Shown here: piece after piece, positions 757-26,625 of the stretch
Layout of the letters: every line of letters begins with the position of its first letter
How positions within the stretch are numbered: position 1 is the first letter of the stretch
Assembly: GCF_000981445.1 (NCBI RefSeq)
Contig: NC_027218.1
Location: 2,108,001-2,172,000 of the forward strand
From: Babesia bigemina
Taxonomy: Eukaryota
Direction of reading: 5' to 3'
Length of the DNA: 64,000 nucleotides
Notes under the pieces: model-generated
The model's database searches: none
What the model was told of the DNA's origin: nothing
The model's input: the letters and a program-made list of their open reading frames with translations, nothing else
Translations under genes and position numbers: made by a program

Positions 757-1765
757 ATGATGGACTTGAACGAATACTCCCATAAAAACCTGAACCACAA
801 CCAAGCTAAATTCATATGTAAGTCGACAACCAGGAATCATAAACCGTGGCGCAGACGAAAACGAAAAGAACTATTACTACGTCGTGAAGAGCTTCTCCGA
901 CAGAAATGTGCGCGCAGCACTCGAGCACAACGTTTGGGCGACTACACCTAAAAACGAGGGTACATTTGACGAGGCGTTCAAGAAGTGCGAGAATGTCGTG
1001 CTCTTCTTTTCCATCAATGGGAGCTCACGTTTCATCGGCTACGCCCTGATGCGATCGAGGCCAGGGAACTGCAGTGTACAGAATAACGTTTTCTGCCTAC
1101 CCAACGGAAGGCAGTTCAACGGCAAGCAATTCGATCTCCTTTGGATTAGGGTGGTGGAATTGCCATTCTCGGACTGTGTTCATCTTAAGAACAGCTTCGA
1201 CGACGGCAGGCCGGTGAAGGTCGCGCGCGACGGACAAAGGATTGATCAATCTACTGGAAAGGAACTGTGTATACTCTTCGAGAACAGGTTCTTGCAGAAA
1301 CCCATACCGTGGCAACCGGAAATGTACGGAAGCCAATATGGTGCGTACGTGATCAACCCTCAAGGATATCAATGCGTGGGAGTAGCCCCAGGTGCACAGA
1401 CCATACCCCCGTTGTCTGGATTTCCGGTTATACCAATATCTCACGCCCCAGTTGATTTGCAGCACATTGGCGTTGTGGCGCCTTACTACCAGGTGCCCCC
1501 CGTGTCGTCACCTCGGAATCAAAAAAGGTCGCGAAGTGGCGCAACGCCTCAAAACGGGCAGGCTGAAAAGCCCACTGACGTTGAAGGAGGGTACCGCATG
1601 ACCGAGGATCACGCGTTAAAGGCGGCGGAGTATAACCCGGCACTGGCAATTTTCCCTGTTGATTTAACGAATTTGTCATACGAGCACTACATCTCCCTAT
1701 ATAACGTCTCGCACCAGTACTGGATTGAACAACAGGAACCTGATGTTAAACCCGAAAGCGAGTGA
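757..1765 (+). CDS. YTH-domain (m6A reader) protein, YTHDC1-like; intron 818-854
   Basis: The 37-nt intron GTAAGT...GCAG joins ATG 757 in frame to ORF 884..1765. YYVVKSFS...NVWATT...VVLFFSINGSSRFIGYALM...VARDGQ are YTH motifs. Confidence 0.9.
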
Positions 1766-2678: not shown

Positions 2679-5600
2679 TTAGTGCGTAACACCAAGGTAA
2701 CCAATAGGGTCCTCGTCGAAGTAGTCGACGTCTTTGTAAAGTGAGAGCATCTTCCGGCCTTTCGTGAGTAAGGCCTTGACGTCGATGTGGTGAGAAGCCT
2801 TGGTGCGGATAAGGTGTGATCGTATACGCAGCACGTCCAGGCGGTACAGCATCGTGTTGGCGAAGACGAGGAATGCGAGAGACCAGAGTGCGACGATGGT
2901 GTAGATGAATGGCTCCCGGATGCCGTAGAGGAAATCGTCCATGGCGGTCATGAGTGATGCGATAGGCTTGCCATCGACAATTTCTTTCAGTTTACTCATA
3001 ACATCATAGCACTTGACTGTCGACTGCGATTTGCCCTCCGGTGGCGTGAACCCGTGAGTGTAGAGGAGGGGAAGGGCAGTGGAACACAGGTGGAGGGATG
3101 TGCACTTGGCAAAATCATGCTTCTTGAGTTCATAGTGCAGTTTTTCAAGTGACTCCCGCAGTCTGTCCGGCAGGTACACCGTCCAGCTGAGGTAGGTGTG
3201 GACAAAGCTCTGGGAGTACAGGGCGTAGGCCCGGTAGGTGATGGGCGGGCAGTGTGGTCGGCAGTTGGCAAAGTCACTGCCGCAGCCAACCAGTGTAGAC
3301 AGCGTCTTGGGATGCTCGTTGTCGTGGTTGTTATTGGAGATCATGTTGAGAGCCTCGGAGCCTCGGAGGCCACTGACAGCTTGGAGGTCGGAGGCACCAA
3401 GACAGTCCCAGTCAGGGCAGTCGGCATGTGACTTGGTGATGGCAGTGCCTAGTGAAGAAAGTGCCTTCAAAGCATACTCGTGCAGCTCATTCCCGAAATG
3501 ATGGAAGTACGACACAAGCTCCCCGGTGGTGCGCGGCGTCCGCCTGGTGAGGCAGTTGAGGTAGGACGCCAATGTCAGCAGGGGATCACTACCGCCGCAG
3601 CTGGGAGTGAGGATGGCGGAAATGACACTGCCCTGTTGCGATGTCTTAGGCAAATCCTTATCTCTGAATCCCATCCTGACACGGCTCTTGAGGCACAGGT
3701 TGCACGGGTCGAAGGGGTGAGTCTCGAAGTCGGAGTCCCAGCCGTCAGTCAGGAACGCCTGGAGGGGGGACGATGTCTTGATGTCACTGCCATATTTAGA
3801 ATCCTGCCAACCACCAAGGGATTTACCTCGTTTACACTGCGCCTTCAGGAACGCCAACTGGTGGCAGCAGGCGTAGACGTAGTCACGCAGCTGGCAGAGG
3901 AGGCAGGCTGGGTCGGGGGAATAATGAAGTTTATCATATTCTAATTTGAAGTCGATGTCAGATAGAGCATCGCCGGATTGCATACGCATTATTCCGTTCA
4001 GGACGTGTGCGGAGTAGAGACAAGCCTCGGTAAGGGTGTCGGCGATATGAGATGCGGACAAGGAGGATAGATCCCCGTTGACCTGGAGGGCATACTTAGG
4101 GTAGAATGTATCGCCGTTGAACACCATCAACAGGCCTTCGATGTGTCTCTCCATTTTGGCAATAAGTCCGTACGCATTGAGACCGACCAGCCAGAAGAGC
4201 ATGGCCTTGACGTTGGTGGGAGGCGGTAGATGGTCGGAGTCTGGTGGAAGGGGGAGGGTTGATGAGGTGGCAGAATCATGAGCGTAATTCCATGGGTTAT
4301 TGCACATGTTGGGGTTAGGATCAACGATGAGACCGTAGTTTATAACATTGTTCCATTTGGGATTATATTCAAAAATTTCATCGGACGTTTTTTTAGGGCT
4401 TGGACCATAAATTCGATAAGCTTCATGTGCGTTGTCTTCGAAATCATCCACGTTTAGTGATGGTGCCAAAGCGATATCAAAGTCACCTCCATGGAACATT
4501 TTTTTCAAATGTTCACTTTGAACAATTTCTCCAGCACGCTTTATGCTTTCCACATGTGCCTGGGTAGCATTCTTCTCCTTTTGTTCCAATTCTTCTTTAT
4601 ACACTTTCTTTTCGTCCGCTACACGTTGCCTCTGTTTCTCGTAATGGTCCTTTATACGCTGCGCTGCATCCTTACTCTTCTGCGCAAAGCTTTGCCTGTC
4701 GGTAGAGTCTACTACTTTAAATGTAATATCTGGATGCTTGAGTGAATCTGGCAATTCGCGAGGATCAGGTAATGCAGGAAGAACAGTTGTAATAGGCGGA
4801 TTCAATTGCATATGCTGAATCCTCCCCCGTCTTAATTCCTCTTCCGCATCCTTGTTGTGTTTTTTGATTTGATCCTTTTCTTTCCGCTCCAATGTTTGCA
4901 GCGCTTTCCGCTCGTCTATGTGTCGACCCAAATCATCTTGAATTTTCTCATGAAACAGCCTATCTCGTTGATCTTGCAATCGCTCCGGCAAATCATCGTC
5001 GATAGGTTTGCCCGTTATTTCGCGATACAGCAGACCAGGATACCACCACGGCCAGTGCTCACCATAGGCATCGTCGGTTGGCTGCGACCCATCTAATTGC
5101 GGCGCAGCCTCTATAAATTTCCTCTGCTCCTCTTCCTGTCTTAAGCGCGCTTCATTAGCTCTGTTGCTACGTTGCAATGTTTTCTGTATTCTATCTAAAT
5201 CCTCATCATGCTTTTTCACTCCTTTGCCCTGTTGTTTCCGCTTTTCCCACTCCGCCTTAGCCTTCTTTTCTTGTTCCGTGTTCACTGTTTCTTCATCTCG
5301 TCTAAGCTGTTCCACTTCCTCCTGCTGAGCTGTACTTTCCAACGATTTCAGAAATTTAATGCCCTCAACTTTTTTCTTTATTTTTTCCTGTAGTTCCTTA
5401 GAAGCGGTATCTGGAATTGGCTGACCATCAAATTCGGAAGGTTGATTAACGGCCATGCTACCATCGTCATGCCTACCTCTACCTTCTGCTGGCTCATAGT
5501 ACCGACGTCCCTGACCATCACGGCTACCGGGAGGCAGAGGATAAGGCCCGGGAGCAAGACGGCTGGGCTGAACTGAGGGGGTGGGATGAATTGGACGGGA

Positions 5601-8138
5601 AGGCCCGGGAGCAACAGGGCTGGTTGGAGTTGGACGGTTGGGTGGAATTTGAAATTGCGGAATTTTACGATTTGGATGTTTAGTATTACGGTCATTTAGT
5701 ATGTTTTTTACGACTGTTTTCTCATAAGCATTTGCGATTTTATTTTCTGCGTTTTCAGAGAGAGGTTTGCGATAAGACTTATTCGGCTTAGGACGACAGA
5801 ATGATGTGCCAGACATATCTACGGATTTAATTTGATTGGCAGGACACGTCGGCGAATGTTGTTTAACCAAAGCGGGATCCTGACCAACTCCCTTCCCATT
5901 ACTCCCACCAACCCCTCCAGCTCCACCGCCACCGCCACCCGAACCAGTGGTTGCCGTAGTAGCAGCGGTGGTAGAACTTGGCGATGTACCTTGGCCATTT
6001 TGTTGAGTGGTGCTAAAAGTGGACCCCTGGTCACCCGTGCCCTGACCACCGACTGGAGCAGGGACACTGGATGACGGGGGGACAGGACTGGAATCACTTG
6101 AAGGCTGAGTGGTTACATTCTGTGCAGGGGCACCAGGCTGTTGAGCTGTAGGACTACCGTCATTTGGACCTTTACTCGTACCACCTTGCTGACCAGGCAC
6201 AGAAGCAGACACCTTACCACTACCGGTACTAGGGACACCATGTGACGGAGTCCCTGAGCTTGAAATACTTGGATTCTGAGATTGCCCAGTTAATGAAGGG
6301 GCACCACTCTGCGATCCCTTACTCTGCCCACCCGGTTGACCAGGCGCAGAGGAAGGCCCCGGACCACCATTGTTACCAGAGACACTAGATGACGAAGAAC
6401 GTGGAGAGAGAGCACTTGACGATTTAGGAGGTAACGGCTGTGAAGCGCCAGCAGTATGCGAACCTTGAGCAGCACCGCCATTTGCACTCCCACCCCCGCT
6501 ACCCGGCTTACTAGAGGAGACAGGGCCTGCAGGAGTGCTGGGATCAGCTCGAGGGGGAGGGTTTGCCGGCGGTTGAGGTGGAGTATGTTGAGATGTAACA
6601 GTATTTTGAGACGAAGAAGATGTTGTAGAGCCGGTACTAGTAGGCCCTTGTGTGCCTTTACCACCTTGAGGCCCTGCAGGGCCTGGCGCTCCTTTAACAC
6701 CGGTACTCGGAGATGGAGAAGATGTGGTAGCTGATGAACTTGAAGGATTTCTTCCACTTTGAGCTTTGGTTTGATTTTGATTTCTCTCAGCTTTCTTGCC
6801 CTGGTTCTGTGCTCCCTCCACTTTCTTGGCCTGGTTCTGTGCTCCCTCAGATTTCTGGCTCTGATTTGGAGTTACTTTGGATTGACTTACAACAGGCTTC
6901 GCCGCCTCGGTTTTGACAGCGGGCTTTGTTGACGTGGATTCTCGAGCAGATTTTCTCTCCGGCGCAACTGCCTTGGGTGCTTCGGAGGAAGTGACAGGTG
7001 GGGGGGCAAGATTGGGACACGATGCTGTATACTCACCTTCTAAGATTGCTTTAAGCTGTATCAGCTTACTTTCAAGCTCGTTGAATCTCTGTAAATTAAG
7101 AGTCCACTGCTGCGGCAAGCCCCTTTTCAAAACGTTCGGTTTACTGCCGTCGAAAATGAACCCACGGGGATAAAGTTTATCGTTGGCAAATGATTGCAGT
7201 TCAGTCTTCTGCGAATTGATTGACTGAGGTATCATTTCACTCAATTCGCCTGCGGCTTTTGGCAAGTTTGCTCTAAACCATGTAGCGGATGTCTTGGCAA
7301 AATTGACTGCGTGTGTAGGCGTAATCCCTCTACCGGTAACAGAAAATCCTGCTCCCGTCAGCGTATCGATGTGTTCCTTCAGAAGTTGACAATGGTTTTT
7401 TAAATCTTGCCAACATATCTTTTTTCCAAGGCCCTTCTCTAAAGCCGCTTTAAAAGCCCCACCGTCAGCATCCTTCTCTCCGGCAACCAACACGCAAAAT
7501 ACATTAACCAAAGATACAGTGTTTCCAGTGTTGACGGCATGCCACGGTTTATTCGAAATTGTCAATGTAACATTTCTAAAATGATCATGCACAGGATTTT
7601 TTGTTCTAGTGTCAACTTCCTTATTCAAAATCTTTCTCAGTTCGTTTGCTACTGCACGTCCCTCTATATTATTAACCTCATGGACACTGAACCCACCACG
7701 AAGAATGTTATTTCCGGTAGTTAGAAAATTGCAAAGCTCGCCTCTCTGCAGCGACTGTGAAGCCCAATCTCCACCGCCAACATTGCTAAACGCATCATCC
7801 ACGTGATACTGCAAGTAATATAATGCAGCAAGAAACTTGGGGATGCATCCTAAAAGCGCGTCAAGAATTTGAGTTTTATCCCTTGTGTTAACATAATTAC
7901 TCGGTGTAGTAATTTTATTAGATAACAATTTAGTACGTAGAGCGGACACATTATTTAGGAAATTAACATATTGAACGTGTAACCCCCGCTTAAAACTTGG
8001 CATTTTTGGAAAAGAAGGCGTCAACCTTTGTACTAACTCAGTTACCACATTACTTTTTTGACCTTTTGGGCCGTTCAACCAGTCCAAGAACTCAAAGCAC
8101 TCCTTAAGAGTGTCCAACTTGACTCCATGCGTATCCAT
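2679..8138 (-). CDS. Babesia VESA-related variant-antigen-like family protein (copy 1), about 1819 aa: N-terminal globular domain, Ser/Pro/Gly-rich linker, coiled coil, Cys-rich conserved C-terminal domain, C-terminal TM
   Basis: Single long ORF with ATG at 8138 (MDTHGVKLDTLKECFEFLDWL). The C-terminus PFIYTIVALWSLAFLVFANTMLYRLDVLRIRSHL resembles the VESA1-type TM and tail. Paralogous to 11767-21767 and 62831-64000. Confidence 0.85.
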   Translation of the reverse strand: MDTHGVKLDTLKECFEFLDWLNGPKGQKSNVVTELVQRLTPSFPKMPSFKRGLHVQYVNFLNNVSALRTKLLSNKITTPSNYVNTRDKTQILDALLGCIPKFLAALYYLQYHVDDAFSNVGGGDWASQSLQRGELCNFLTTGNNILRGGFSVHEVNNIEGRAVANELRKILNKEVDTRTKNPVHDHFRNVTLTISNKPWHAVNTGNTVSLVNVFCVLVAGEKDADGGAFKAALEKGLGKKICWQDLKNHCQLLKEHIDTLTGAGFSVTGRGITPTHAVNFAKTSATWFRANLPKAAGELSEMIPQSINSQKTELQSFANDKLYPRGFIFDGSKPNVLKRGLPQQWTLNLQRFNELESKLIQLKAILEGEYTASCPNLAPPPVTSSEAPKAVAPERKSARESTSTKPAVKTEAAKPVVSQSKVTPNQSQKSEGAQNQAKKVEGAQNQGKKAERNQNQTKAQSGRNPSSSSATTSSPSPSTGVKGAPGPAGPQGGKGTQGPTSTGSTTSSSSQNTVTSQHTPPQPPANPPPRADPSTPAGPVSSSKPGSGGGSANGGAAQGSHTAGASQPLPPKSSSALSPRSSSSSVSGNNGGPGPSSAPGQPGGQSKGSQSGAPSLTGQSQNPSISSSGTPSHGVPSTGSGKVSASVPGQQGGTSKGPNDGSPTAQQPGAPAQNVTTQPSSDSSPVPPSSSVPAPVGGQGTGDQGSTFSTTQQNGQGTSPSSTTAATTATTGSGGGGGGAGGVGGSNGKGVGQDPALVKQHSPTCPANQIKSVDMSGTSFCRPKPNKSYRKPLSENAENKIANAYEKTVVKNILNDRNTKHPNRKIPQFQIPPNRPTPTSPVAPGPSRPIHPTPSVQPSRLAPGPYPLPPGSRDGQGRRYYEPAEGRGRHDDGSMAVNQPSEFDGQPIPDTASKELQEKIKKKVEGIKFLKSLESTAQQEEVEQLRRDEETVNTEQEKKAKAEWEKRKQQGKGVKKHDEDLDRIQKTLQRSNRANEARLRQEEEQRKFIEAAPQLDGSQPTDDAYGEHWPWWYPGLLYREITGKPIDDDLPERLQDQRDRLFHEKIQDDLGRHIDERKALQTLERKEKDQIKKHNKDAEEELRRGRIQHMQLNPPITTVLPALPDPRELPDSLKHPDITFKVVDSTDRQSFAQKSKDAAQRIKDHYEKQRQRVADEKKVYKEELEQKEKNATQAHVESIKRAGEIVQSEHLKKMFHGGDFDIALAPSLNVDDFEDNAHEAYRIYGPSPKKTSDEIFEYNPKWNNVINYGLIVDPNPNMCNNPWNYAHDSATSSTLPLPPDSDHLPPPTNVKAMLFWLVGLNAYGLIAKMERHIEGLLMVFNGDTFYPKYALQVNGDLSSLSASHIADTLTEACLYSAHVLNGIMRMQSGDALSDIDFKLEYDKLHYSPDPACLLCQLRDYVYACCHQLAFLKAQCKRGKSLGGWQDSKYGSDIKTSSPLQAFLTDGWDSDFETHPFDPCNLCLKSRVRMGFRDKDLPKTSQQGSVISAILTPSCGGSDPLLTLASYLNCLTRRTPRTTGELVSYFHHFGNELHEYALKALSSLGTAITKSHADCPDWDCLGASDLQAVSGLRGSEALNMISNNNHDNEHPKTLSTLVGCGSDFANCRPHCPPITYRAYALYSQSFVHTYLSWTVYLPDRLRESLEKLHYELKKHDFAKCTSLHLCSTALPLLYTHGFTPPEGKSQSTVKCYDVMSKLKEIVDGKPIASLMTAMDDFLYGIREPFIYTIVALWSLAFLVFANTMLYRLDVLRIRSHLIRTKASHHIDVKALLTKGRKMLSLYKDVDYFDEDPIGYLGVTH
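6772..6872 (-). repeat. About 3 degenerate 30-nt coding repeats (NQSQKSEGAQ NQAKKVEGAQ NQGKKAERNQ)
   Basis: Shares GAGGGAGCACAGAACCAGG with the 12985-13521 array. Confidence 0.85.
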
Positions 8139-8278
8139 CCTTTCCCCAACCAATCATACACTGGCCAACTTATATAAAACGCCACGGCAAGTGGCCATAC
8201 GGTGTTAGCCAGGAAACACTAAAGGGGTCAGAGCTCTAAGTTGACGCCCCTTACAAATTACCCTATCCAATCCATTTA

Positions 8279-11605: not shown

Positions 11606-12984
11606 CATGTCTGGCCGTCTAGTATTTTTAGACGGGGCCACCTTAGAGGTATGATCAGACGACTGCTTCCTAGTTCACATAGTCGTGGACACCAGCCGTA
11701 AAGATTTGTAAGCGCATGTTGGCGAATGTGTATTAGCATTTTGTGTTTCTGCTATTTGTATCCAAAATGGTGTCGGCTAAGAAATTCTATCTCACTAGCC
11801 TTAGGGAGTGTTTCATATTTTTCGATTGGTTAAACACCCAAAAGAAGAATATACACGCCCAAATTGCCCAGGATCTGTATAAACGTATAAATAAGTATAA
11901 TAAGGCGGTCGAATCAAACAGTATTAAAGCATCGCTGTCCACTTTCCTCTCGAACGTAGATAAGTTTTATAGAATATTGGTAAGTGACGGCATCCCTGAA
12001 AAATTGCTTCGAACAACAAACTCAATTAATAGCGACGCAACAACGGAGGAAATTGTGGACGCTCTTCTCGAGTGTATTCCTAAATTCCTCGCCGCGATGT
12101 ACTATCTTTGGTACGATGTGAATGCCACTTTCGAGGAGCTTGGCGGCGGTGGTTGGAAGTTAAATTATCCAGGGGCCTTATATGGTAGTTACTATAGTTC
12201 AAGCGGAGGCGATCTCGACAATTACCTCCATGCGAAGAACGGCAGCAACTACGGTGGCATGATACCCGGAGGATTCAACCCCACCGAAGTGAGGTATGGC
12301 TATTGGTACAGTGGCTACCGTCAGGGATATCTGATGGAAGATGATATTAGAATAATTCTGGACAAAAAAAATGACCAGTGTTTTCGTAACGTATTTCTTA
12401 CTACGGTTGGCGTCGCAGGCAAGCAGAAGGAAAACGTTGCAAATGTTCTTGCATTGGTGGGAACGTTTTGCGACATTGTGGAAAGGGACAAAGGTGCCGT
12501 GAAGAGCGCTTTGGAAAAGCAACTTAAGGAAATGAATGGAAAATGCCTGGATTGGTCTGCCTTACAATCTCATTGCAAAGAGCTAAAGAAATCCCAAATA
12601 CACAGATTGTTCGCCAGTCAACGCTTTGCGCATACTGGCCAGTCACTAGAATCTAGTGATTCTACAAAGGAAGAAATTGCGAAAGATGCGGCAAAGTGGT
12701 TGAGAGTGAATTTGTTGGAAGTTAAGAGCCATTTGAATAAAATTGATACAAAAGACAAGGTCATCGACAATCCCGATAAGAAGCACCTTGGCGCATATTT
12801 CACCAACAATCTTTTCCCATACGGTTTCTTTTTCGATGACAACCATTTCAGAAGGATGATTAAAGATAGGAAGACCTTGATGCAAAATTGGCGTAGTGTA
12901 ATCAGTAAGTTTGTTGCTAATGGTGAAGGTTTAGAAAAGTTAAAAACACTTTTGGAAGGTTACAATTGTCCAGAAGATACTTAT

Positions 12985-13521
12985 AAGAAATCCGAGGGAG
13001 CACAGAACCAGGGCAAGAAATCCGAGGGAGCACAGAACCAGGGCAAGAAATCCGAGGGAGCACAGAACCAGGGCAAGAAAGCGGAGGGAGCACAGAACCA
13101 GGGCAAGAAGGCTGAGGGAGCACAGAACCAGGGCAAGAAGGCTGAGGGAGCACAGAACCAGGGCAAGAAATCCGAGGGAGCACAGAACCAGGGCAAGAAA
13201 TCCGAGGGAGCACAGAACCAGGGCAAGAAAGCGGAGGGAGCACAGAACCAGGGCAAGAAGGCTGAGGGAGCACAGAACCAGGGCAAGAAGGCTGAGGGAG
13301 CACAGAACCAGGGCAAGAAAGCGGAGGGAGCACAGAACCAGGGCAAGAAAGCGGAGGGAGCACAGAACCAGGGCAAGAAGGCTGAGGGAGCACAGAACCA
13401 GGGCAAGAAGGCTGAGGGAGCACAGAACCAGGGCAAGAAGGCTGAGGGAGCACAGAACCAGGGCAAGAAATCCGAGGGAGCACAGAACCAGGGCAAGAAA
13501 GCGGAGGGCACTCCAAATCAG
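12985..13521 (+). repeat. Coding tandem repeat, 17 complete 30-nt units plus 1 partial, encoding KK[S/A]EGAQNQG and ending KKAEGTPNQ
   Basis: Unit AAG-AA[A/G]-[TCC/GCG/GCT]-GAGGGAGCACAGAACCAGGGC, counted directly from the sequence. Confidence 0.98.
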
Positions 13522-14893
13522 CAAACCGCTCAAAATAGTCGAACGACTTCAAGTTCACTGGGTCCGCATTCAGATTCATCGACAGTGTCCGGTGCTGATG
13601 TAGCTAAAGGTCAACCAGGGGCTAAAGGTGATCAAGGCGCGAAAGGGCCTCCTGATACAGGGACTACAAAATCTTCTACACCTCAACGTGCTGGTAAGCC
13701 GCAACATCCTCCGCCCCAACCGCCGCCAGCGCCTCCCCCCAGTACTCCCGCTGCCCCTAGCCCCGCTGGTCCGACAAGTGACGGGGGTGGAAGGCCAAAT
13801 GACAGTGGTGCTCGAAGTCAGAAGCCTGTTGCCTCTAAACCCCCTGCTTCTCCTCCGTCTACAAGTGGTACAAGTCCAGCCCCTCCGTCACTTGCTGTCC
13901 CTGGTTCCAGTGGTGGCACGGGGTCTACTTCTGTGCCTGTTAAACCAGGTGTTAAGGGGCAGGGTTCAATGGTCAGTGTTTCTCCAGCGCAACAACCTGG
14001 TGCGTCTTCACAGAATGTTATCACTCAGTCTCCAACTGCTCAATCTCCTGGCCCTCGGTCATCTGGTGTCTCTGCTCCCGATGGTGGTCAGAACTTGGGT
14101 AGCTCGGCGGGTTCTGCTGTCCCTGGTCCAACAGGTGATCAAGGTAAACCGCAGAATTCCACTGCCGCTATTACTACGCCATCCACTGGCTCGGGCGCTG
14201 GTTCGGGCGGCGGTGGAGGGGATGGCGGTAGTAATGGGAAGGGGACTGGTAATTCTCAAACTCAGATAAATTGCCCTCAGGGCCAGTCACTTATGAGTCT
14301 ATGGCCCAATGGCTCCAAGTTCTGCGTCCCTACAAATGACTTTAATGACCATGAAAAAACCTATACCGTATGGGACAATGTCAAAAAATCGCATGATAAG
14401 GACATTCAAAAGACTGTAGAGAGAAATCGACAGAAACAAAATTCACAATTGCGATATCCTCCCAGACGCCAAACAAGGCCTGACAATCTTAATGCCGTAC
14501 CACCAACTCATTCTAACAGTCTCCACCCTGCTCAACACCAGCCCATTGATCCACTAAGAAGGGATGACGGGCGGGGAGGCACAGGCGCTCCGCATATTCC
14601 GTCTATTGACGTTTCCGTTGGTGGAGAAGCAATTCAGCCGACGAAATCAAATCATTTCGCTGCGAAGGACTTCACTAAATTGCCGGGTCTCCGTGGCCAG
14701 GCTATGCGTGATTTGGATTATGAGCAGGATCAAGTGTACAACGAGTTGTTATTTGACGAGATAGCAGCACAAACGAAATTGCAGAAAAATTTGGAAAAAG
14801 AAAAATTGGAGAGATCGGAGGAAGAGAATATAAGGGCCCATAAATATCAAGTAGAAGGCATCGAACGGCAATTAGAAGAGCACAAAAAACAAG

Positions 14894-14901
14894 TAGCAGA
14901 T
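14894..14901 (+). repeat. Left target-site duplication TAGCAGAT
   Basis: Identical to 19219-19226; the flanking bases differ on both sides. Confidence 0.9.
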
Positions 14902-17900
14902 GTTAAATTAAGTTATCTCATCTTATAGTGTGCTATGTGGCTACGTGCCTAGGGCCGGTTTTCGTGTTTGCGGGGCTAACGCCTCACGCTGAAACCGGTT
15001 GCGGGATCCACGCCGGTCCATTGCCGGACGTCACTGGTGCCATCCATGCGGGCATCCATCCAGTTTGGGCTTGAGGGTCTTCTACGGAATCGTAGTCTTC
15101 TTTCGGCTTCATATCCCTCATCACTATTTTATGTGTTTCTTGGATCACTACCCTTTGTATGTGGGCTTCCATGCGATCCGATATGCCCAGGTCCCGTCTG
15201 TACTTGCTGTGCTCCTTTGTCACTATTCCCTCCCACGTCATAACGTAGGGGATAACCCTGATCTTGGTGTGCTGGTTAAACTGTCGCGCCTTGAGGTCCT
15301 CAATAAGGTCTTCATACTTCTGCTTCTTGAACTTCTCCGTATCCACTAGGTTGTCTTGATTGGTGATTCCTATCTCCACGATGGTTATGGTGTTCCTCCG
15401 CCGATCCGCCAGGATGATGTCTGGCCTGTTGTATTCCTTAGTCTTCTGAGTCTTGACCGTCTTGTCGTACGCGATCCATCCGTATTTTCCATGTACTTCA
15501 CTCTCGATCTTGTGGGCGTCTATCTTCTCCTTGGGTAGTCCTATTTGCCTCCCGAGTACTGAGTGGACCCGTTTTGCTACCTCGTTGTGCCTCTTCGTAT
15601 ATTCTAGGTGTAGTAGTTTCTGGCACTTCGTCGCGAGGTGATCCACGTTCTTGCCGTTGTTGCATCTTGTGCATTTCTTGGACGAAGACATCCATTGCAG
15701 ATTCCTATCCTGGACTTCCGCTACGTTCGCTTCTTCTTCCGGAGTGAGTATTCCACACGTCAGGTACAAGGACGACGCCTCAATGTCCAGCTTGGGGTCC
15801 TCACGCTTGGCATACAGAACCTTATGAGTTGATTTTACGTGCATTCTGTTGTACAGCCATTTGTTTTGGGCCACCCTGAGGTCCCTGAGGCTCTTGTCCG
15901 TAGTGTCCTCCATTCCGAATTCCATTCCATATCTTCCTTCCAGGTGCATCTTGATGTGAGATATGTGCGCGTATGTGTCGCGAAAATGCTGCATGATCGC
16001 AGCTCTCCTGGTTGACGTCACCTCGTCTGCTGAAAGCGTCAACCACAGTCGTAGCAGCATGGCTTCCGCTCTAAATACCATGCTGTGGAGCCCTCTCCCC
16101 ATCTCTTTCCGGGGGAGGTAGAGCCTCTGTGTGTTCGCCCACTTCTTGTGTCCGTGCTTCGCGTTAATTATTCTCCGTACTGCCAGGTCGATCTTGTCGA
16201 AATGCGTGATGTCCATGGGGATCACGCCGATGTAGTAGTTGATGACGCTGAGGGCGTACTGGTTGATGGCCATCGAGAGGTTTTTCCCCGACAGCTTTGA
16301 CGCAGCCAGTAGCTCCGTTCTCCTGCATATCTCCTGTAGTATTATGTCGAACATTCCGTCGCTTGTCAGTGAGTTTGAAGTCTCTGTGACTCCCAAGTAC
16401 TTGTACGTTTCCGGGCCTTCCATCTGCTTGGCGATGCTGGCGCACGCCTCCGTGTTGGTTGCCGACTTGTCGCGGTTGATCCTGAGTCCTATGTCGTTGA
16501 AGAACTTCTCCACTTCTCGGCCCATTCCTCTCATCGTACTTTCCTCGTGGGCGAAGAACTTGAGGTCGTCAATATAGAGAAAGTGGTTTGTGGCGAATAT
16601 CCTGCCGCCGGTCACGCTTAACTCCACCTTGGGGAAGATGCGAGTCAGGTGCCTGCTCAGCGGGTCCAAGCACAGCACGAAGAGAAGGGGCGATAGGCTG
16701 TCGCCTTGGAGAATGCCCCTCTCCACTTTCTTGTGCATGATTGTGTTCTTGTTCCACCGTATCTCTATATTCCACCTCTTGATCGTCTGCTTGATGAAGT
16801 TTGATAACCACCCTGGTAGGTTAAGGTTGTCGATAACCCTTGCCAGGTACGCGTGGTCGATTGAGTCGTACGCCTTCATGACGTCGACCCACGTTGCAAG
16901 TAACTTCCCCTTGTGCTTCTCGTTGAGCGCGATGTTCGCTAACGCGTGCTCCTTTGCACCCTGTACGTTGCTCCTCGTGCCCATCTGGTTCTCGGACCGT
17001 AGTCCCCTGCCATCGACTTCTCGCTTAAGCGTCTCCGTTGCACAGCGGGTAGTTAGCTTGTATAGGTTGGACATGCATGTGATAGGCCTGTACTGTGCGG
17101 CGGACTTTGGTTTCTTGTTCTTCGGTAGTAGGTACGTGATCCCACAGTAGAACCAGTCGTCCTGCACTTTGCCTTGCTGGCATGCCTCCTCTACTAGCCT
17201 GTAAATGACTCTGTGAAGGGACGTGAGCCATTTAATGTAGTAGTTGTAGATCCCATCCGCACCGGGCGACTTCCAGTCTCGCAATTTCTTGACGATCGTG
17301 ACGAATTCCTCGTATGTGGGAAAGCCTGCCTTGTTCTCTGCCGGTGGTCTTTCGACCAGATATCCTTCACCGTTGTGCGGTGCGTTTGGCTTCACCCACA
17401 TTTGCGCCCAGTACTCTATCATCATCCCCTCGTTTATCGCCGACTCGTCCGCGTCCTGCTTGTTCTCCAGTGTCCTGTAGAAGTGTCCCGTGTAGAGCTC
17501 GAACATGCGGTTGTCGTTGTACAACTCCTTCTTGAACTTGGCGTTCTTGAGTTTGTCCTGCTCCTTTTGGAGCTCCTCTTGAGTCCTGCTGATCACGTAT
17601 GACAGTTCCTGCGGCTTGTCCGCGATCATGTTGTACTTGTCCATTTGGCGATAAACGCGTTTCCTATCCTCCTTCTCCAGGGGGACCTTCTGCTTGTATT
17701 TCAGAAGTAATGCTCCTATCTCCTCCAGCTCCTTGATCCTCCTCTCAGCTGCCTCCTTCTTTCCCGAGGACGACGATGGTTTTGCGCTGTACTTGTCGTA
17801 GCAGTCCTGTGCCGTTTGATACAAGATGGCTAGCATCCCCATGTCAGTGACTGGGTTGTGCTTCACGTAGTTGTGGACCACTAGATCCAGCGACCTTATC

Positions 17901-19218
17901 GCCGTGAAGTCGAGGGAGTCCATGGTGTGTCTTTTGTTCTTTACTGTCCTAATCACACCAGGCTCCCTCAACCTCTGTGCCATGATCCGGTCGAAATCCT
18001 CCTGCAGGGCGTTGTATGAGTCGACGTCGTGCAGCGATGCTATTTCTCCAACGTCCGTCGGTTGGCTCCGCGCTGCTTTGGCGACTACCTGTCTTGCCAT
18101 CTGCTCCACCTCCTTGTGGGTCTTGTGGAATTCGAAATGCTCGTTGGCATATTCCGCGAGGACTTTCCATCCTCCTCGTGGCATCCTCTGATACTTCGTC
18201 ACTACTGCCTTGTAGACGTCCGGTACCCAATGACACCATGGTCCATCGATCTGACGCATGACACAGTGCAGGAACTGTAACTTGGCATTCAGCCTAGCGT
18301 AGTTCGGCGGCATTTGTGGCGTGTTCCCGGCCCGTTCAGCCTGCGGGGCGTGCCCTTCGGGTGCCCTCGGCAACGCAGCCGTCTCAGTGAGCGCCACCTC
18401 ACTGGCGGTGCCCGGTGCTATACTGTTGTTTGATTCTCTCACAGGCCCGACTTGCTCAGGTTCCTCTTCGTCCACGTCCATAAAGTCATCCGACGATATG
18501 GAATACACGGTCGGAGAGCGGCAGCCACCGTTTCCGACAACCTCCCCTGCCGGTGGCTGCAGGGTAGACAGTGTCTGCACACACACGGGTGCGCGTTCCG
18601 AGGAACTCGGCCCGGCGTTGCAAACCACGACAGGCGGCGTTTGAGCCGTGTTTCCTGTCTTTTTGGCCTTCCGGTTGTTACCCTTTTGGCCCTGGGGACC
18701 GCCGTTCCGCGCTTTGTTTCCAGCGCCCTTCACAGCCGGAGTGGTTCCGGGCTGGTGTCGTTTCCGGCTTGCCTGCGGGATTGGCCGGCTTTCGCCGCCA
18801 CGGCCGGCCCCCTTCGAATTTGTGGGTTTACCTTTAGGGCCCTGAACACCGCTTTGTACCGGTTTTCTGGATTCATGCCGCCTTTCGGGTTGCCGACACT
18901 CTCGGCGCCCCACGGTGGCAAGCGGAGCATCGATGTCCATCCCATCGGGGACGTCCACGTCAATAACCATGAGGTCTCCGTCCTCATCGATTTGACTGCT
19001 CAGCTGCACTTCTTGTGAGCTCTCCATTGGTACCTTGTTCGTCTATCCAGCGCGCCTGTGTGGCCGCCTTTCGCCTCGCGATGTTGCCGCTTTAATTCCG
19101 CACTTTTGGCCTTCAATACACCCCCCAGTGACATCGGAAAAATTTCCTTTCTGTGATAAACCCGAGAAAACACGTTTCTCAAAGTTTCCCCCAAAATCAC
19201 AGAAGATTCCAACTCCCC
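14902..19218 (-). mobile_element. Full-length non-LTR retrotransposon with restriction-like endonuclease (R4/Dong/EhLINE-like), 4317 bp
   Basis: Bounded by an 8-bp direct repeat. 191-nt 5' UTR, single 1347-aa ORF, 82-nt 3' UTR. Excision restores the host reading frame. Confidence 0.93.
14984..19027 (-). CDS. Retrotransposon polyprotein: low-complexity N-terminus, reverse transcriptase, CCHC zinc knuckle, PD-(D/E)xK-type RLE endonuclease
   Basis: RT motifs KSPGADGI, LLPK...YRPITCMSNLYK, DVMKAYDSIDH, RGILQGDSLSPLLF, YIDD, GLRINRDKS, YKYLG. RLYLPRKEMGRGL. CTRC-x7-H-x4-C. RHN. RPDIILAD...IVEIGI...KKQKY. Confidence 0.96.
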   Translation of the reverse strand: MESSQEVQLSSQIDEDGDLMVIDVDVPDGMDIDAPLATVGRRECRQPERRHESRKPVQSGVQGPKGKPTNSKGAGRGGESRPIPQASRKRHQPGTTPAVKGAGNKARNGGPQGQKGNNRKAKKTGNTAQTPPVVVCNAGPSSSERAPVCVQTLSTLQPPAGEVVGNGGCRSPTVYSISSDDFMDVDEEEPEQVGPVRESNNSIAPGTASEVALTETAALPRAPEGHAPQAERAGNTPQMPPNYARLNAKLQFLHCVMRQIDGPWCHWVPDVYKAVVTKYQRMPRGGWKVLAEYANEHFEFHKTHKEVEQMARQVVAKAARSQPTDVGEIASLHDVDSYNALQEDFDRIMAQRLREPGVIRTVKNKRHTMDSLDFTAIRSLDLVVHNYVKHNPVTDMGMLAILYQTAQDCYDKYSAKPSSSSGKKEAAERRIKELEEIGALLLKYKQKVPLEKEDRKRVYRQMDKYNMIADKPQELSYVISRTQEELQKEQDKLKNAKFKKELYNDNRMFELYTGHFYRTLENKQDADESAINEGMMIEYWAQMWVKPNAPHNGEGYLVERPPAENKAGFPTYEEFVTIVKKLRDWKSPGADGIYNYYIKWLTSLHRVIYRLVEEACQQGKVQDDWFYCGITYLLPKNKKPKSAAQYRPITCMSNLYKLTTRCATETLKREVDGRGLRSENQMGTRSNVQGAKEHALANIALNEKHKGKLLATWVDVMKAYDSIDHAYLARVIDNLNLPGWLSNFIKQTIKRWNIEIRWNKNTIMHKKVERGILQGDSLSPLLFVLCLDPLSRHLTRIFPKVELSVTGGRIFATNHFLYIDDLKFFAHEESTMRGMGREVEKFFNDIGLRINRDKSATNTEACASIAKQMEGPETYKYLGVTETSNSLTSDGMFDIILQEICRRTELLAASKLSGKNLSMAINQYALSVINYYIGVIPMDITHFDKIDLAVRRIINAKHGHKKWANTQRLYLPRKEMGRGLHSMVFRAEAMLLRLWLTLSADEVTSTRRAAIMQHFRDTYAHISHIKMHLEGRYGMEFGMEDTTDKSLRDLRVAQNKWLYNRMHVKSTHKVLYAKREDPKLDIEASSLYLTCGILTPEEEANVAEVQDRNLQWMSSSKKCTRCNNGKNVDHLATKCQKLLHLEYTKRHNEVAKRVHSVLGRQIGLPKEKIDAHKIESEVHGKYGWIAYDKTVKTQKTKEYNRPDIILADRRRNTITIVEIGITNQDNLVDTEKFKKQKYEDLIEDLKARQFNQHTKIRVIPYVMTWEGIVTKEHSKYRRDLGISDRMEAHIQRVVIQETHKIVMRDMKPKEDYDSVEDPQAQTGWMPAWMAPVTSGNGPAWIPQPVSA

Positions 19219-19226
19219 TAGCAGAT
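19219..19226 (+). repeat. Right target-site duplication TAGCAGAT
   Basis: Identical to 14894-14901. Confidence 0.9.
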
Positions 19227-21767
19227 CATAAAGATTTTGTGGAAGCTTTGCAAAATACCGATTGGGTGGGAAAAGCAGTCGATCACTTTTCAGGGCCATT
19301 TGTATCTACATATATACCTTTTGATGGCAATCCGGTTCCGGATCAAATCAAAGACGCCCATGATAAACTTATGGAACGTGAATTTGAGCAGAAAACGCAA
19401 GATGCTATTTACAATCAAACGGTAAAGGAATTGAAACTAGCAGAGCGCCAGAAGAAAGATGCGGAACGTGAGGAACGAGATGTAAAACACATTGATGATG
19501 AGCTTAAGTATATAGATCACATAGAAAAACAGAAATACGACAACCAGGTAGCGGAAGTATCAGCGCTTGATGGGAATACAGTTGTGCTTCCAAAGACATA
19601 TGGCATACACGACTTAGACCCTTCCCTGCTATTTTCCGGTACTGCAGCTCCTAGATTATCTCACGATCCAGCGGTATATAGACGTATCTATGCGAGTGCT
19701 GCGGACCATGTTGCAAACATCGTAAAACAAAAGGTAGATGAGCAAGACATGATTCAGAATACTAAAACACGTCTTGGAATGTTTAATGGCGGTGATGTCG
19801 ATATTACATACCCACTGCCATATATGGCTCGTAACCCTGATTATTTAGAGCTTCAAATTGACACCCCTAAGCGCGCAGTCCAAGACACCTTACATGACAT
19901 GGATCTAGATGACCTTTATTCCAACGCTGACAATATCTTGAGAGATGAGTACATAACTTCCGATATGACGTATGGTAAAGACAAAGGCTTTTCAAGCGTC
20001 CCTCAGACTAATTTCGATTTGGACTTTGCACCCGGACGTATTGGAGTTGAAGGCTATGGAGATCCCGGGATGCCGCGTGACCCTTCCAGGGAGGTGTCTG
20101 AGCGCTTAGTTCCGGCATTCGCTACTCCAGACAGCTGCCAAAATCCCTGGTACGTTACCCCTTCATCCACCTCTCCCACACCTCCAACCCCCGCACCTCT
20201 CCCAGTCACCGATCATCTGCCGCCCCCCAAAACCGTACGGGAAATGCTCTACTGGTTTGTTGGATTGAATACACAAGGGTATGTTGGATTGATTACAGAC
20301 TATATCTATAGCATTTTGAAGGATGCTAACAAAAATGTCTCCAAGATCTCAGATGTTATCGAAGTCACCGGGGACCCTACCAACCTGGATGCTTCCCATG
20401 TCGCCGACAAACTGACCGAGGCATGTCTCTACGGGGCAAGCGTACTTTACAGGCTCAAATATCGTGATGATTACAAGGCTTATAATAATTTAAAATTCGA
20501 ATCGGAATATAGTAAGTTCCGTTATGCCTCCGACCCCGCCGGTCTCCTCTGCCAGCTGCGTGACTACGTCTACGCCTGCCACCACCAGTTGGCATTCCTG
20601 AAGGCGCAGTGTAAGCGGGATAAACTAAGTGGTGGGTGGAAACATTACCATTATGGCAGTGACATCAAGACATCGTCCCCCCTCCAGGCGTTCCTGACCG
20701 ACGGCTGGGACTCCACCTTCAAGACTCACCTCTTCGACCCGTGCAACCTGTGCCTTAAGAGTCGTGTCAGGATGGGATTCAGAGATAAGGATTTGCCTAA
20801 GACATCGCAACAGGGCAGTGTCATTTCCACCATCCTCACTCCCAGCTGCGGCGGTAGTGATCCCCTGCTGACATTGGCGTCCTACCTCAACTGCCTCACC
20901 AGGCGGACGCCGCGCACCACCGGGGAGCTTGTGTCGTACTTCCATCATTTCGGGAATGAGCTGCACGAGTATGCTTTGAAGGCACTTTCTTCACTAGGCA
21001 CTGCCATCACCAAGTCACATGCCGACTGCCCTGACTGGGACTGTCTTGGTGCCTCCGACCTCCAAGCTGTCAGTGGCCTCCGAGGCTCCGAGGCTCTCAA
21101 CATGATCTCCAATAACAACCACGACAACGAGCATCCCAAGACGCTGTCTACACTGGTTGGCTGCGGCAGTGACCCTGACAACTGCCCTCCGCATTGCTCG
21201 CCCATCACGTATCGGGCCTACGCCCTGTACTCCCAGAGCTTCGCGCACACCTACCTCAGCTGGACGGTGTATCTGCCGGACCTACTGTGGGAGTCACTCA
21301 AGAGACTACATTATGATCTCAAGAAGCATGTTAGCACCAAGTGTTCATCCCTTTACTTGTGTTCCACTGCCCTGCCCCTCCTCTACACTCACGGGATCAC
21401 GCCACCGGAGGGCAAATCGCAGTCGACAGTCAAGTGCTATGATGTTATGAGTAAACTGAAAGAAATTGTCGATGGCAAGCCTATCGCATCACTCATGACC
21501 GCCATGGACAATTTCCTCTACGGCATCCGGGAGCCGTTCATCTTCACTCTCGTGGCACTCTGGTCTCTCGCATTCCTCGTCTTCGCCAACACGATGCTGT
21601 ACCGCCTGGACGTGCTGCGTATACGATCACACCTTATCCGCACCAAAGCCTCCCACCACATCGATGTCAAGGCCCTGCTCACGAAAGGCCGGAAGATGCT
21701 CTCACTTTACAAAGACGTCGACTACTTCGACGAGGACCCTATTGGTTACCTTGGTGTTACGCACTAA
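19227..21767 (+). pseudogene. VESA-related family gene copy 2, 3' part (still an open frame; contains the conserved C-terminal domain and TM)
   Basis: HKDFVEALQNTDW... continues in frame from ...HKKQVAD at 14901. The C-terminal ~400 aa is near-identical to copy 1. Confidence 0.88.
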
Positions 21768-25080: not shown

Positions 25081-26625
25081 CTAAAGGTCGTCGGTGTTTC
25101 TGAAGAAATCACGCTGACCGAAGCTTTGGAACCTGTGGTTCTGCTGCCGGCGCTGCTGCTGGCCTGAGCGCTTGAGGCCGCGATCATCCTGGCCGCGAAC
25201 GTACTGCGTGATGCCTGCGTCGGCGTTCATAAGGTTCTGCAGTATCATGTTCGAGCGCATGGTGAGGTTCTGGGTCTTGTCGATGACCTGCTGGTATAGG
25301 TTCGGGGGAACTGTGGAGATTTCCACGCAGTTCTTCTCGCTGTCGATTTTCGCCTCCAGGTGGGAGTGCCTGATGAGGTTGACGATCCACCGTTCCGCTT
25401 CCAGCGAGCTCATGTTCACCTTTTGTGCGATAAGGTCGAGGTTGATCGACTGGTGTATGCGGCAGTACGTCTCGAAGATGATGTGCCTGCTGTACTCCTC
25501 GATCTGGAACTTGAGGGGCTCCAACAAAATGTCGACGTGGCACGCGTTTTGGATTTGCATGATGTGCTTCTGCGCGTCCTCGAAGTTGTACTCCACGAAC
25601 AGCGCACTCACCAACGCGGTGAAGGTGTCGGAGTACTTGGCCTTCCCGATCGAGAGCGACGCGCTGATGACTTTGAAGTGGTCCTTGCGATTCCTGTTGA
25701 GTATGGCGTAGACGGCGTAGTACCTCAGCAGATGCGGGGCTACCATCAGCACCACCGCCATGTTGCGGTCGTCCATGAGGTACTCCTGGACGTGCGGCCA
25801 CTCGTAGCTCTTGGCGTTCTTGGACTTCACCTGCGACAGCGGAATGTGGTACCTGAACACGTAGAAGAGCGCCCAGTGCAGCAGCCAGCAGCGCTTAAGC
25901 ACGAGATCCTTGCGATTTTTGCCCAGTTCTTCGTTGTTGAAAATCTCGGCGAGCCTCAGAATGCACTGGACGCCGGTCCTCGGCAGGTCGGGCTCCAGGA
26001 CACTGTTTTCCTTGTTCTCATCGTAGGGAGTGGCCGTGGTTGCCATGACCAGCAGCTCCTCCTCGGTCGACGGCAGCAGCACGCCCACCGTGATCGAGCG
26101 CAAGATACCCCAGTAGCACTTGGCCCTGTTGGCGGCCGTGTTGCCGTCGAAGGTGTACTTGGCCACGTTCTCCAGGTAGTACACCAGCCACTGCTTGCAC
26201 TTCTTCCAGTCTCCGTTGTCGGAGTATAGTTTCGCGAGCTTGAATATCGTGGCTTCGGATTCCGGGCTAACCTCGATGTCGGTCGTGCCCTGCGTCGCAA
26301 GCCACTGCGGCAGGGACACCAGCCATATGCGCTCTGCGGACGACGAGATGCGCGTGGCCTGGCTCTTCTTGTATATCTCTAGCGCCTCCTGAAGTGGCGC
26401 AAGGGTATTCAGCATCGCGGCCTCCTGCTCGCTGAACTGTTCGTCTGTCAGCCTCTGCGAGGCCACCTTGCTGGTGATGTCCGCGCGGACGGCCGACAGT
26501 TCGCCCTTGTACACCCCCTTTTGTTCCAGCCAGTCCAGCACGTGGAGCAGCATCTCGACGTCCAGGAACGGCGAGATCCGGCTGGTGATGTCATAGGGCG
26601 TGCACTCCTCGACGTTGACGCCCAT
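25081..26625 (-). CDS. eIF3e: Eukaryotic translation initiation factor 3 subunit E (PCI domain)
   Basis: YDITSRISPFLD N-terminus, RCWLLHWALF, and IFETYCRIHQSINLDLIAQKVNMSSLEAERWIVNLIR...AKIDS. Confidence 0.93.
   Translation of the reverse strand: MGVNVEECTPYDITSRISPFLDVEMLLHVLDWLEQKGVYKGELSAVRADITSKVASQRLTDEQFSEQEAAMLNTLAPLQEALEIYKKSQATRISSSAERIWLVSLPQWLATQGTTDIEVSPESEATIFKLAKLYSDNGDWKKCKQWLVYYLENVAKYTFDGNTAANRAKCYWGILRSITVGVLLPSTEEELLVMATTATPYDENKENSVLEPDLPRTGVQCILRLAEIFNNEELGKNRKDLVLKRCWLLHWALFYVFRYHIPLSQVKSKNAKSYEWPHVQEYLMDDRNMAVVLMVAPHLLRYYAVYAILNRNRKDHFKVISASLSIGKAKYSDTFTALVSALFVEYNFEDAQKHIMQIQNACHVDILLEPLKFQIEEYSRHIIFETYCRIHQSINLDLIAQKVNMSSLEAERWIVNLIRHSHLEAKIDSEKNCVEISTVPPNLYQQVIDKTQNLTMRSNMILQNLMNADAGITQYVRGQDDRGLKRSGQQQRRQQNHRFQSFGQRDFFRNTDDL

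What the first reader, a model, noticed from the sequence alone, without database searches (positions are those of the whole stretch)
12985..13521. Parasite antigen-like gene carries a decapeptide array matching the mammalian p180/RRBP1 ribosome-receptor repeat
Seen: 17 units of KK[A/S]EGAQNQG ending in KKAEGTPNQ. Established, from memory and needing verification: the tandem-repeat domain of mammalian RRBP1/p180 has consensus NQGKKAEGA[Q/P] and includes NQGKKAEGTP variants. Inference: exact matches to both the consensus and a variant unit are hard to explain by chance. This suggests host-to-parasite sequence capture or molecular mimicry, for example a self-like immunologically tolerated linker or a ribosome/RNA/microtubule-binding module. 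A resident reverse transcriptase offers a speculative route for capturing host mRNA fragments. Automated annotation would likely label these genes as ribosome-binding protein 1 on the basis of this repeat alone.
Basis: partly seen in the sequence, partly recalled or inferred. Interest (0 to 1): 0.8.

Follow-up and report, generated by a model that had tools for sequence, protein, structure and literature searches.

The report
Pathogens share a host self-repeat disguise
A cattle blood parasite's variant-antigen gene carries 17 copies of the ten-residue repeat of a mammalian cell protein, and unrelated trypanosome and mycoplasma proteins, predicted to sit on the cell surface, carry the same repeat, likely because the host's antibodies spare it as 'self'.

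Summary
Observation confirmed: 17 units KK[A/S]EGAQNQG plus KKAEGTPNQ lie in the predicted disordered linker of a Babesia bigemina ves1a-type gene that a LINE element interrupts further downstream. Eleven of 17 units match retrieved mammalian RRBP1/p180 units exactly. The repeat is family-wide (77 of 99 Babesia rows) and sits beside a second host module, titin PEVK/PPAK (one 21/21 exact match), and collagen-like triplets. The same decapeptide occurs in otherwise unrelated carriers: Trypanosoma vivax GPI-type proteins, Mesomycoplasma P97 (the known R2 repeat) and P102-type adhesins, M. pneumoniae lipoproteins and a Babesia MFS protein; some mycoplasma adhesins hold the lubricin repeat in that slot instead. 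The peptide is conserved while codons diverge. Best reading: exposed linkers built from self-tolerated host repeats, an antibody camouflage (0.6); ligand binding is the main rival (0.25). Capture versus antibody-driven convergence is unresolved, because host DNA and ruminant RRBP1 arrays could not be retrieved. The neighbouring reverse transcriptase shows no link to the array. The mycoplasma-p180 likeness was noted in passing in 2011; my 10 paper searches found no report of the Babesia, trypanosome, titin or lubricin parallels.

The parts
11767..14928 (+). 5' part of a ves1a-type variant antigen gene (1053-aa ORF, P0001), ending inside the inserted element; no transmembrane segment
   Evidence: family label
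11779..12981 (+). Folded N-terminal helical domain (about aa 5-405), pLDDT mostly 80-98
   Evidence: best structural match 2LCU Bc28.1, Z 10.1, rmsd 3.3, 141 aligned
12985..13494 (+). 17 tandem 30-nt units encoding KK[A/S]EGAQNQG (RRBP1/p180-type decapeptide, equal to the mycoplasma P97 R2 type); predicted coil
13495..13521 (+). Terminal variant unit KKAEGTPNQ, also found in mammalian RRBP1 and in mycoplasma carriers
13609..13653 (+). Five collagen-like Gly-X-Y triplets in the same linker
   Evidence: runs of 5 or more in 38 of 98 Babesia rows, 0.9 expected from local shuffles
14894..14901 (+). Left copy of an 8-bp direct repeat bounding the retroelement
14902..19218 (-). Non-LTR (LINE-like) retrotransposon; one 1352-aa frame 14984-19042 with a reverse transcriptase domain; single copy in the window
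   Evidence: (RVT_1 E 2.6e-30)
19219..19226 (+). Right copy of the 8-bp direct repeat
19219..21767 (+). 3' part of the ves1a-type gene with the conserved C-terminal domain and one predicted transmembrane helix (about 21525-21602)
2679..8153 (-). Uninterrupted ves1a-type paralog (1824-aa frame), head to head with the gene above, with an AAKP module and 3-4 degenerate decapeptide units at 6786-6863

Best explanation
The array is a host-identical repeat in the predicted flexible, exposed linker of a Babesia ves1a-type variant antigen, and it likely works as antibody camouflage: the host is likely tolerant to abundant, highly repeated self sequences, so a linker spelled like RRBP1 (or titin, lubricin or collagen) would draw little antibody or T-cell help. 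Shown: the sequence identity, its fixed slot after the folded domain, the other host-like modules beside it, its recurrence in unrelated carrier proteins of several pathogens, and selection on the peptide rather than the DNA. Inferred: surface exposure of this family, tolerance as the selective force, and the origin (capture of host sequence about 0.45, stepwise convergence under antibody selection about 0.5). This particular copy is interrupted by a LINE element and would at most give an unanchored protein or act as a sequence donor.
For: Same unit in carriers that share no detectable homology once the repeat is masked (BLASTP E<=0.01 among 10 carriers, only the two ves1a proteins hit each other): Babesia ves1a (77 of 99 rows loose, 67 of 99 exact), a B. 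bigemina MFS protein loop, T. vivax proteins with signal-like start, Cys-rich domain, repeat stalk and GPI-like tail, Mesomycoplasma P97/P102-type adhesins (11 of 15 genomes of the genus, reversed-pattern control 0), M. pneumoniae P68 lipoproteins and two more unnamed mollicutes, G201 and G245. Interchangeable host repeats with unrelated host functions: titin PPAK over the Pfam cut-off, full length, in 5 of 25 proteins scanned, a 21/21 match to a human titin peptide, titin-type motif in 34 of 99 rows and always before the decapeptide (30 of 30); the lubricin motif KEPAPTTP arrayed in the same adhesin slots in Moose RK and in 2 of 401 genomes searched. Peptide-level selection: 23 Moose RK units have 23 different DNA sequences but 5 peptide types; pN/pS 0.11 and 0.07. 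Pathogen variants mirror host variants, including a 12-residue match to the host's terminal unit that differs from the consensus at 5 places. The repeat is placental-specific among rows retrieved (67 non-eutherian rows reach at most 5 of 10). Five repeat-overlapping T. vivax peptides gave no excess signal with infected livestock sera (logFC -0.19 to -1.08, none significant; PMC9529106 S1 Table).
Against: The serum result is weak: the 6 non-repeat peptides of the same gene were also not significant and few of the 600 peptides passed correction. RRBP1 and titin are intracellular, and B-cell tolerance to such proteins is incomplete (own knowledge). R2 has been tied to heparin, fibronectin and matrix binding (reference title; passage). 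VESA1A was not detected in the B. bigemina PR proteome, and surface location of this family is not shown. KKSEGAQNQG, the second commonest Babesia unit (82 of 246), is absent from the mammalian rows retrieved; no ruminant array was among them. 22 of 99 Babesia rows lack the unit, so it is dispensable. pN/pS is higher in the small sets G008 (0.52, 5 units) and G021 (0.35, 7 units), and unit pairs are not independent.
Confidence: 0.6

Rival explanations
1. Functional ligand mimicry: the repeat binds a host molecule (glycosaminoglycan, fibronectin, or an inhibitory 'self' receptor), aiding adhesion or dampening immune cells.
For: R1 and R2 of Mhp271 are reported to bind heparin, fibronectin and cilia (title only); PMC3091866 calls R2 a matrix-binding motif; the unit is basic and multivalent; an R1-like AAKP module lies just upstream in 29 of 99 Babesia rows.
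Against: Heparin binding would not need exact neutral residues or the host's rare variants; titin, lubricin and collagen repeats fill the same slots yet share no known ligand; PMC9542919 calls R2 function unclear and maps GRP78 binding to R1-2.
Confidence: 0.25
2. One ancient capture followed by pathogen-to-pathogen transfer, or neutral carry-over of captured host DNA as a convenient spacer, with no immune selection for host identity.
For: Mycoplasma units are richer in G/C at third positions than matched background in 5 of 5 groups (0.27-0.40 against 0.17-0.22), in the same direction as the Babesia codons at several positions; B. bigemina and B. ovata have LINE-like elements.
Against: No non-repeat RRBP1 sequence accompanies any carrier; no target-site duplication around the array; peptide conserved with saturated silent sites; avoidance of A-runs and shared ancestry can explain part of the codon skew.
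Confidence: 0.1
3. The repeat binds ribosomes, RNA or microtubules as it does in p180.
For: The p180 repeat region is needed for ribosome binding in yeast (abstract).
Against: The carriers are adhesins, lipoproteins, GPI-type proteins and variant antigens, predicted to face outward; the membrane anchor and coiled coil of p180 are absent; mature red cells lack ribosomes (own knowledge).
Confidence: 0.03
4. Chance resemblance of low-complexity sequence, or host contamination of the assembly.
For: K/E/G/N/Q-rich loops are common in these organisms; B. bigemina assemblies have been reported to share BovB and L1 sequences with mammals (passages), which may reflect contamination (own inference).
Against: In frame at a fixed slot in 77 of 99 paralog rows of two species; 128 of 133 new rows from an unfiltered HMMER search reach at most 6 of 10 identities; decamer probability about 2e-12, titin 21-mer about 5e-26 per position.
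Confidence: 0.02

Closest known systems
Mammalian RRBP1/p180 decapeptide repeat (PMC2120505, PMC12491259)
   Same: Unit sequence and several variants (AQ, TP, SP, NQ; A/V/G/T at position 3)
   Different: No ER anchor, no PF05104 region, no coiled coil; carried in a parasite antigen linker; Ser at position 3 is far commoner (93 of 246 Babesia units against 6 of 239 mammalian units retrieved)
R2 repeat of Mycoplasma hyopneumoniae P97/Mhp271 (GTPNQGKKAE; PMC9542919) and its likeness to pig KIAA1398 and dog p180 noted in the M. suis genome paper (PMC3091866)
   Same: Same host-like unit in a pathogen surface protein; likeness to p180 already remarked in one passage
   Different: That passage covers two pig mycoplasmas and offers no mechanism; here the unit is shown in an apicomplexan, a kinetoplastid and a human mycoplasma, beside or exchanged with titin and lubricin repeats
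B. bigemina / B. ovata ves1a variant antigens (PMC4066756, PMC5660447)
   Same: N-terminal homology, low-complexity middle, conserved C-terminal domain with one transmembrane helix, divergent gene pair
   Different: The passages and section read describe only low-complexity regions, not host-identical modules; this copy is split by a LINE element
Host-mimicry by pathogen surfaces, e.g. hyaluronan or sialic-acid capsules, streptococcal collagen-like proteins, Plasmodium RIFINs engaging inhibitory receptors (recalled, from no call)
   Same: Looking like self at the host interface
   Different: Here the disguise is exact peptide repeats of mostly intracellular host proteins, reused across kingdoms
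LINE-like elements of Babesia (PMC9141347)
   Same: Non-LTR element with reverse transcriptase in B. bigemina
   Different: Nothing new except the insertion site inside a ves1a gene

Membership tests
BbigVes1a variant antigen | Homology to proteins clustered as ves1a | tested here: met
   33-50% identity over the N-terminal domain to about 98 B. bigemina/B. ovata rows named ribosome-binding protein or hypothetical; such names fall in module 2 labelled ves1a. Linked by names and lengths, not by accession of this gene
BbigVes1a variant antigen | Conserved C-terminal domain with one transmembrane helix | tested here: met
   Present in the piece downstream of the element (55-73% identity to paralogs; helix); absent from the 1053-aa ORF itself
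BbigVes1a variant antigen | Pfam VESA1 N-terminal model | tested here: inconclusive
   No VESA family hit at E<=1; ves1 families diverge to about 25% identity between species
BbigVes1a variant antigen | Expression on the infected red-cell surface | not testable with these tools
   Published proteome did not detect VESA1A; two genes with this name are blood-stage upregulated
RRBP1/p180 | Decapeptide tandem repeat | tested here: met
RRBP1/p180 | N-terminal ER anchor with PF05104 and C-terminal coiled coil | tested here: not met
   PF05104 hits P0003 but not P0001; no BLAST match after masking the repeat
RRBP1/p180 | Ribosome binding | not testable with these tools
   needs an experiment
Mycoplasma P97 adhesin | R2-type decapeptide | tested here: met
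Mycoplasma P97 adhesin | P97 N-terminal domain (NF045828) | tested here: not met
   hits P0130 and P0123, not P0001
Retro-captured host mRNA fragment | Flanking duplication, poly(A) or non-repeat host sequence around the array | tested here: not met
   no shared 5-8-mer between array flanks; no A-run at the 3' flank; no non-repeat RRBP1 match of 9 or more residues. An old capture would have lost these marks
Retro-captured host mRNA fragment | Synonymous-site identity with host DNA | not testable with these tools
   no mammalian RRBP1 or TTN DNA retrievable
Non-LTR retrotransposon | Reverse transcriptase, target-site duplication, no long terminal repeats | tested here: met
   RVT_1; 8-bp direct repeat; only a self-hit in BLASTN
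Non-LTR retrotransposon | Restriction-like endonuclease and CCHC knuckle (R2/R4 type) | tested here: inconclusive
   motif-like residues seen by eye in the C-terminal part; no Pfam hit; motif definitions recalled

The most novel reading that the evidence does not exclude
Chronic blood and airway pathogens from three kingdoms have independently filled the exposed linkers of their surface proteins with a small shared vocabulary of placental-mammal self repeats (RRBP1 decapeptide, titin PPAK, lubricin, collagen triplets), marking holes in the mammalian antibody repertoire, with the unit variants tracking each host; in Babesia the modules are stacked in fixed order and shuffled across a variant-antigen family.
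Probability: 0.5. Interest if true: 0.92.

Novelty: new variant of a known kind. Interest (0 to 1): 0.82.

Why it matters
If true, it turns a database mis-annotation ('ribosome-binding protein 1', about 170 genes in one supplement) into a readable record of what mammalian antibodies fail to see, gives a mechanism for the long-unexplained R2 repeat of mycoplasma adhesins, and offers a direct test of B-cell tolerance to intracellular repeats. Practically, vaccine and diagnostic antigens that include these repeats (P97 R2, P113, ves1a, T. vivax proteins) may be poorly immunogenic in the natural host, may cross-react between unrelated infections, or may raise anti-self antibodies; M. pneumoniae lipoproteins extend the question to people.

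Tried and rejected
No whole genome is held for the window. Long ruminant, pig or human RRBP1 isoforms were not returned by three protein searches and cluster look-ups; in effect required the word KKSEG, so its blanks mean little. Viral contigs: no match. Metagenomes: 55 stretches, none an array; one chance hit. ESM Atlas: nothing above 0.83. PDB sequence search with P0095: nothing under E 0.7; Foldseek: nothing under E 0.001. PPAK was not found in 15 genomes of the mycoplasma genus, with a control that rang nowhere. Sequencing runs: none was listed, so expression and the empty insertion site were not examined. An 'even-toed ungulates only' reading was dropped after the M. pneumoniae hits. The Pfam Pentapeptide_2 hit on the array is treated as a periodicity artefact; the beta-helix model of the review was not reproduced by AlphaFold2. 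The AAKP and PRP modules could not be assigned to a host protein. PMC178831, PMC1346629 and PMC108587 (original P97 papers) are not held and may mention the p180 likeness. One supplement of PMC4066756 was not searchable. Earlier findings of this scan: nothing bearing on this.

Full report
Observation. The array is real and as described: 17 full 30-nt units at 12985-13494 (11 KKAEGAQNQG, 6 KKSEGAQNQG) and a terminal KKAEGTPNQ, in frame in an ORF from 11767 to 14928. Only three DNA unit types occur, so the present length is a recent expansion (pS 0.12). The dog p180 consensus is NQGKKAEGAP in 54 copies (PMC2120505, abstract). Among 17 mammalian RRBP1 rows I could retrieve, 11 of the 17 window units match exactly and KKSEGAQNQG does not occur; none of these rows is a ruminant, pig or complete human array. 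A collapsed reindeer model begins its array with QGKKSEG, one hint that the Ser type is ruminant. 67 non-eutherian RRBP1 rows reach at most 5 of 10 identities, so the repeat looks placental-specific.

The gene. The protein's relatives are B. bigemina and B. ovata proteins named ribosome-binding protein 1 or hypothetical, and its contig has the same length as that of several B. bigemina rows. A supplement of PMC5660447 puts such names in the ves1a cluster (supplement rows seen). AlphaFold2 on residues 1-618 with 63 sequences gives a confident helical domain to about residue 405 and low-confidence coil over the array. A 4.3-kb non-LTR element on the minus strand, bounded by an 8-bp direct repeat, interrupts the gene 1.4 kb downstream of the array; the conserved C-terminal domain with its transmembrane helix lies beyond it. 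LINE-like elements are already reported in B. bigemina (PMC9141347, passages). Because the repeat is shared with B. ovata paralogs and has no flanking duplication, this insertion did not bring it.

The family. Of 99 Babesia rows (from, including the query and one MFS protein), 67 hold the exact motif and 77 a loose one, nearly always right after the folded domain. The same linker holds titin PEVK-type units in 34 of 99 rows, always ahead of the decapeptide (30 of 30). Of 25 proteins I chose to scan, 5 B. ovata rows pass the Pfam PPAK cut-off over all 27 positions and 3 more rows, two of them B. bigemina, fall just under it. One row matches a human titin peptide listed in PMC7510303 at 21 of 21 residues (table passage). 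Runs of five or more Gly-X-Y triplets occur in 38 of 98 rows against 0.9 expected, including this gene. An AAKP module resembling mycoplasma R1 occurs in 29 of 99 rows and has no identified host source. Babesia also carries rare host variants, such as a 12-residue match to the terminal host unit with 5 differences from the consensus.

Other carriers. The unit is the R2 repeat of M. hyopneumoniae P97 (PMC9542919, passages) and is found in 11 of 15 genomes of that genus, in P97-type and P102-type adhesins. An unfiltered HMMER search of 1.84 billion representatives listed 150 rows; of 133 new rows, 3 had exact units and proved to be T. vivax proteins with a hydrophobic start, Cys-rich domain, repeat stalk and GPI-like tail, 2 were a Babesia and a chimpanzee row, and 128 reached at most 6 of 10. 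That list stops at E about 1e-13, so carriers with few units in other organisms are not excluded. Pattern searches found units in 8 of 401 and 12 of 401 sampled genomes; outside Mesomycoplasma these are four loci of G098, three of which are exact M. pneumoniae P68 lipoproteins, and ORFs of G201 and G245. With repeats masked, none of these carriers matches another or RRBP1. In Moose RK and two M. ovipneumoniae-like genomes the lubricin motif (PMC4314068, passages) forms arrays in slots where paralogs carry the decapeptide.

Selection. Mycoplasma units keep the peptide while silent sites diverge: 23 units, 23 DNA sequences, 5 peptide types in Moose RK; pN/pS 0.11 and 0.07 in the two large sets, 0.35-0.52 in two small ones. 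Position 3 and positions 6-7 vary mostly among residues also used by mammals. The genome whose P97 carries the published pig-pathogen R1 and R2 repeats uses AP/SP units like the dog consensus, whereas the named ruminant pathogens use AQ; whether this follows the hosts' own arrays is untested.

Mechanism. These proteins need long flexible linkers that are exposed to antibody for months. The host proteins being matched (ER ribosome receptor, muscle spring, joint mucin, collagen) share no ligand but are abundant and highly repetitive, the kind of self antigen that induces strong tolerance (own knowledge; p180 is highest in plasma cells and secretory tissue, PMC12491259 passage). I therefore favour camouflage (0.6). 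The one existing data set fits but is weak: five repeat-overlapping T. vivax peptides showed logFC -0.19 to -1.08 with infected sera, none significant, while six other peptides of that gene were also not significant (PMC9529106, supplement rows and passages). Ligand binding is the main rival (0.25). On origin, long exact matches and G/C-rich silent sites in mycoplasmas suit capture; recurrence in at least five lineages, short degenerate arrays in K/N/Q/E/G-rich loops and the lack of any non-repeat host sequence suit stepwise convergence under antibody selection. I cannot separate them without host DNA.

What is known. PMC3091866 (passage in the virulence section) notes that the R2 motif occurs in an M. 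suis gene, pig KIAA1398 and dog p180, with unclear meaning. My ten searches found no paper linking Babesia, T. vivax or M. pneumoniae to the RRBP1 repeat, or titin and lubricin repeats to these pathogens; subscription papers, the original P97 papers and one supplement were not seen. Other papers consulted: PMC4066756 (passages, part 1 of section 22, 3 supplements searched), PMC9806345, PMC7561165, PMC11414289, PMC13465657 (passages). Verdict: a real host-identical repeat, not an RRBP1 gene; a new and wider form of molecular mimicry; interest 0.82.

Noticed in passing
window 11767-12405 (model residues 10-213): The ves1a N-terminal domain's best structural match is 2LCU Bc28.1 (Z 10.1, rmsd 3.3, 141 aligned; next row Z 5.0). 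Bc28.1 is recalled as a Babesia canis merozoite surface protein, which would link VESA1a to that fold; the score is within the range helical bundles can reach by chance.
   Followed up: partly
window 14902-19218: Apparently full-length single-ORF non-LTR retrotransposon with an open 1352-aa frame and an 8-bp target-site duplication, inserted in a ves1a gene, so probably recent.
   Followed up: partly
window 2679-8153 and 11767-21767: Two ves1a-type genes head to head about 3.6 kb apart; their last 1.3 kb are 93% identical in DNA, suggesting gene conversion. A third C-terminal piece lies at 62831-64000 (-), 82% identical.
   Followed up: partly
P0161: A B. bigemina MFS-type protein has three decapeptide units in a loop; MFS genes are expanded in B. 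bigemina and B. ovata. Loop orientation was not determined.
   Followed up: partly
L004:2871-6035, L048, L049: Lubricin-type KEPAPTTP arrays in Mesomycoplasma adhesins.
   Followed up: yes
L059-L062 (G098): M. pneumoniae P68 lipoproteins (MPN_097, MPN_152, MPN_284 clusters and a fourth locus) carry 2-3 RRBP1-type units each; possible bearing on post-infection autoantibodies is untested.
   Followed up: partly
Babesia rows P0011, P0035, P0079; L014, L018: AAKP-containing module shared between Babesia linkers and the R1 region of P97-type adhesins; host source, if any, unidentified. A PRP-rich module replaces the decapeptide in about 9 rows.
   Followed up: no
window 794-1765, 25081-26775, 30269-33799, 37367-39808, 42069-47474, 55644-60359: Ordinary housekeeping genes: YTH-domain protein, eIF3e, EF-hand phosphatase, ion channel, WD40 protein, ABC transporter.
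   Followed up: no
window 61781-62050: 75-bp tandem repeat, 3.6 copies, near the third ves piece.
   Followed up: no
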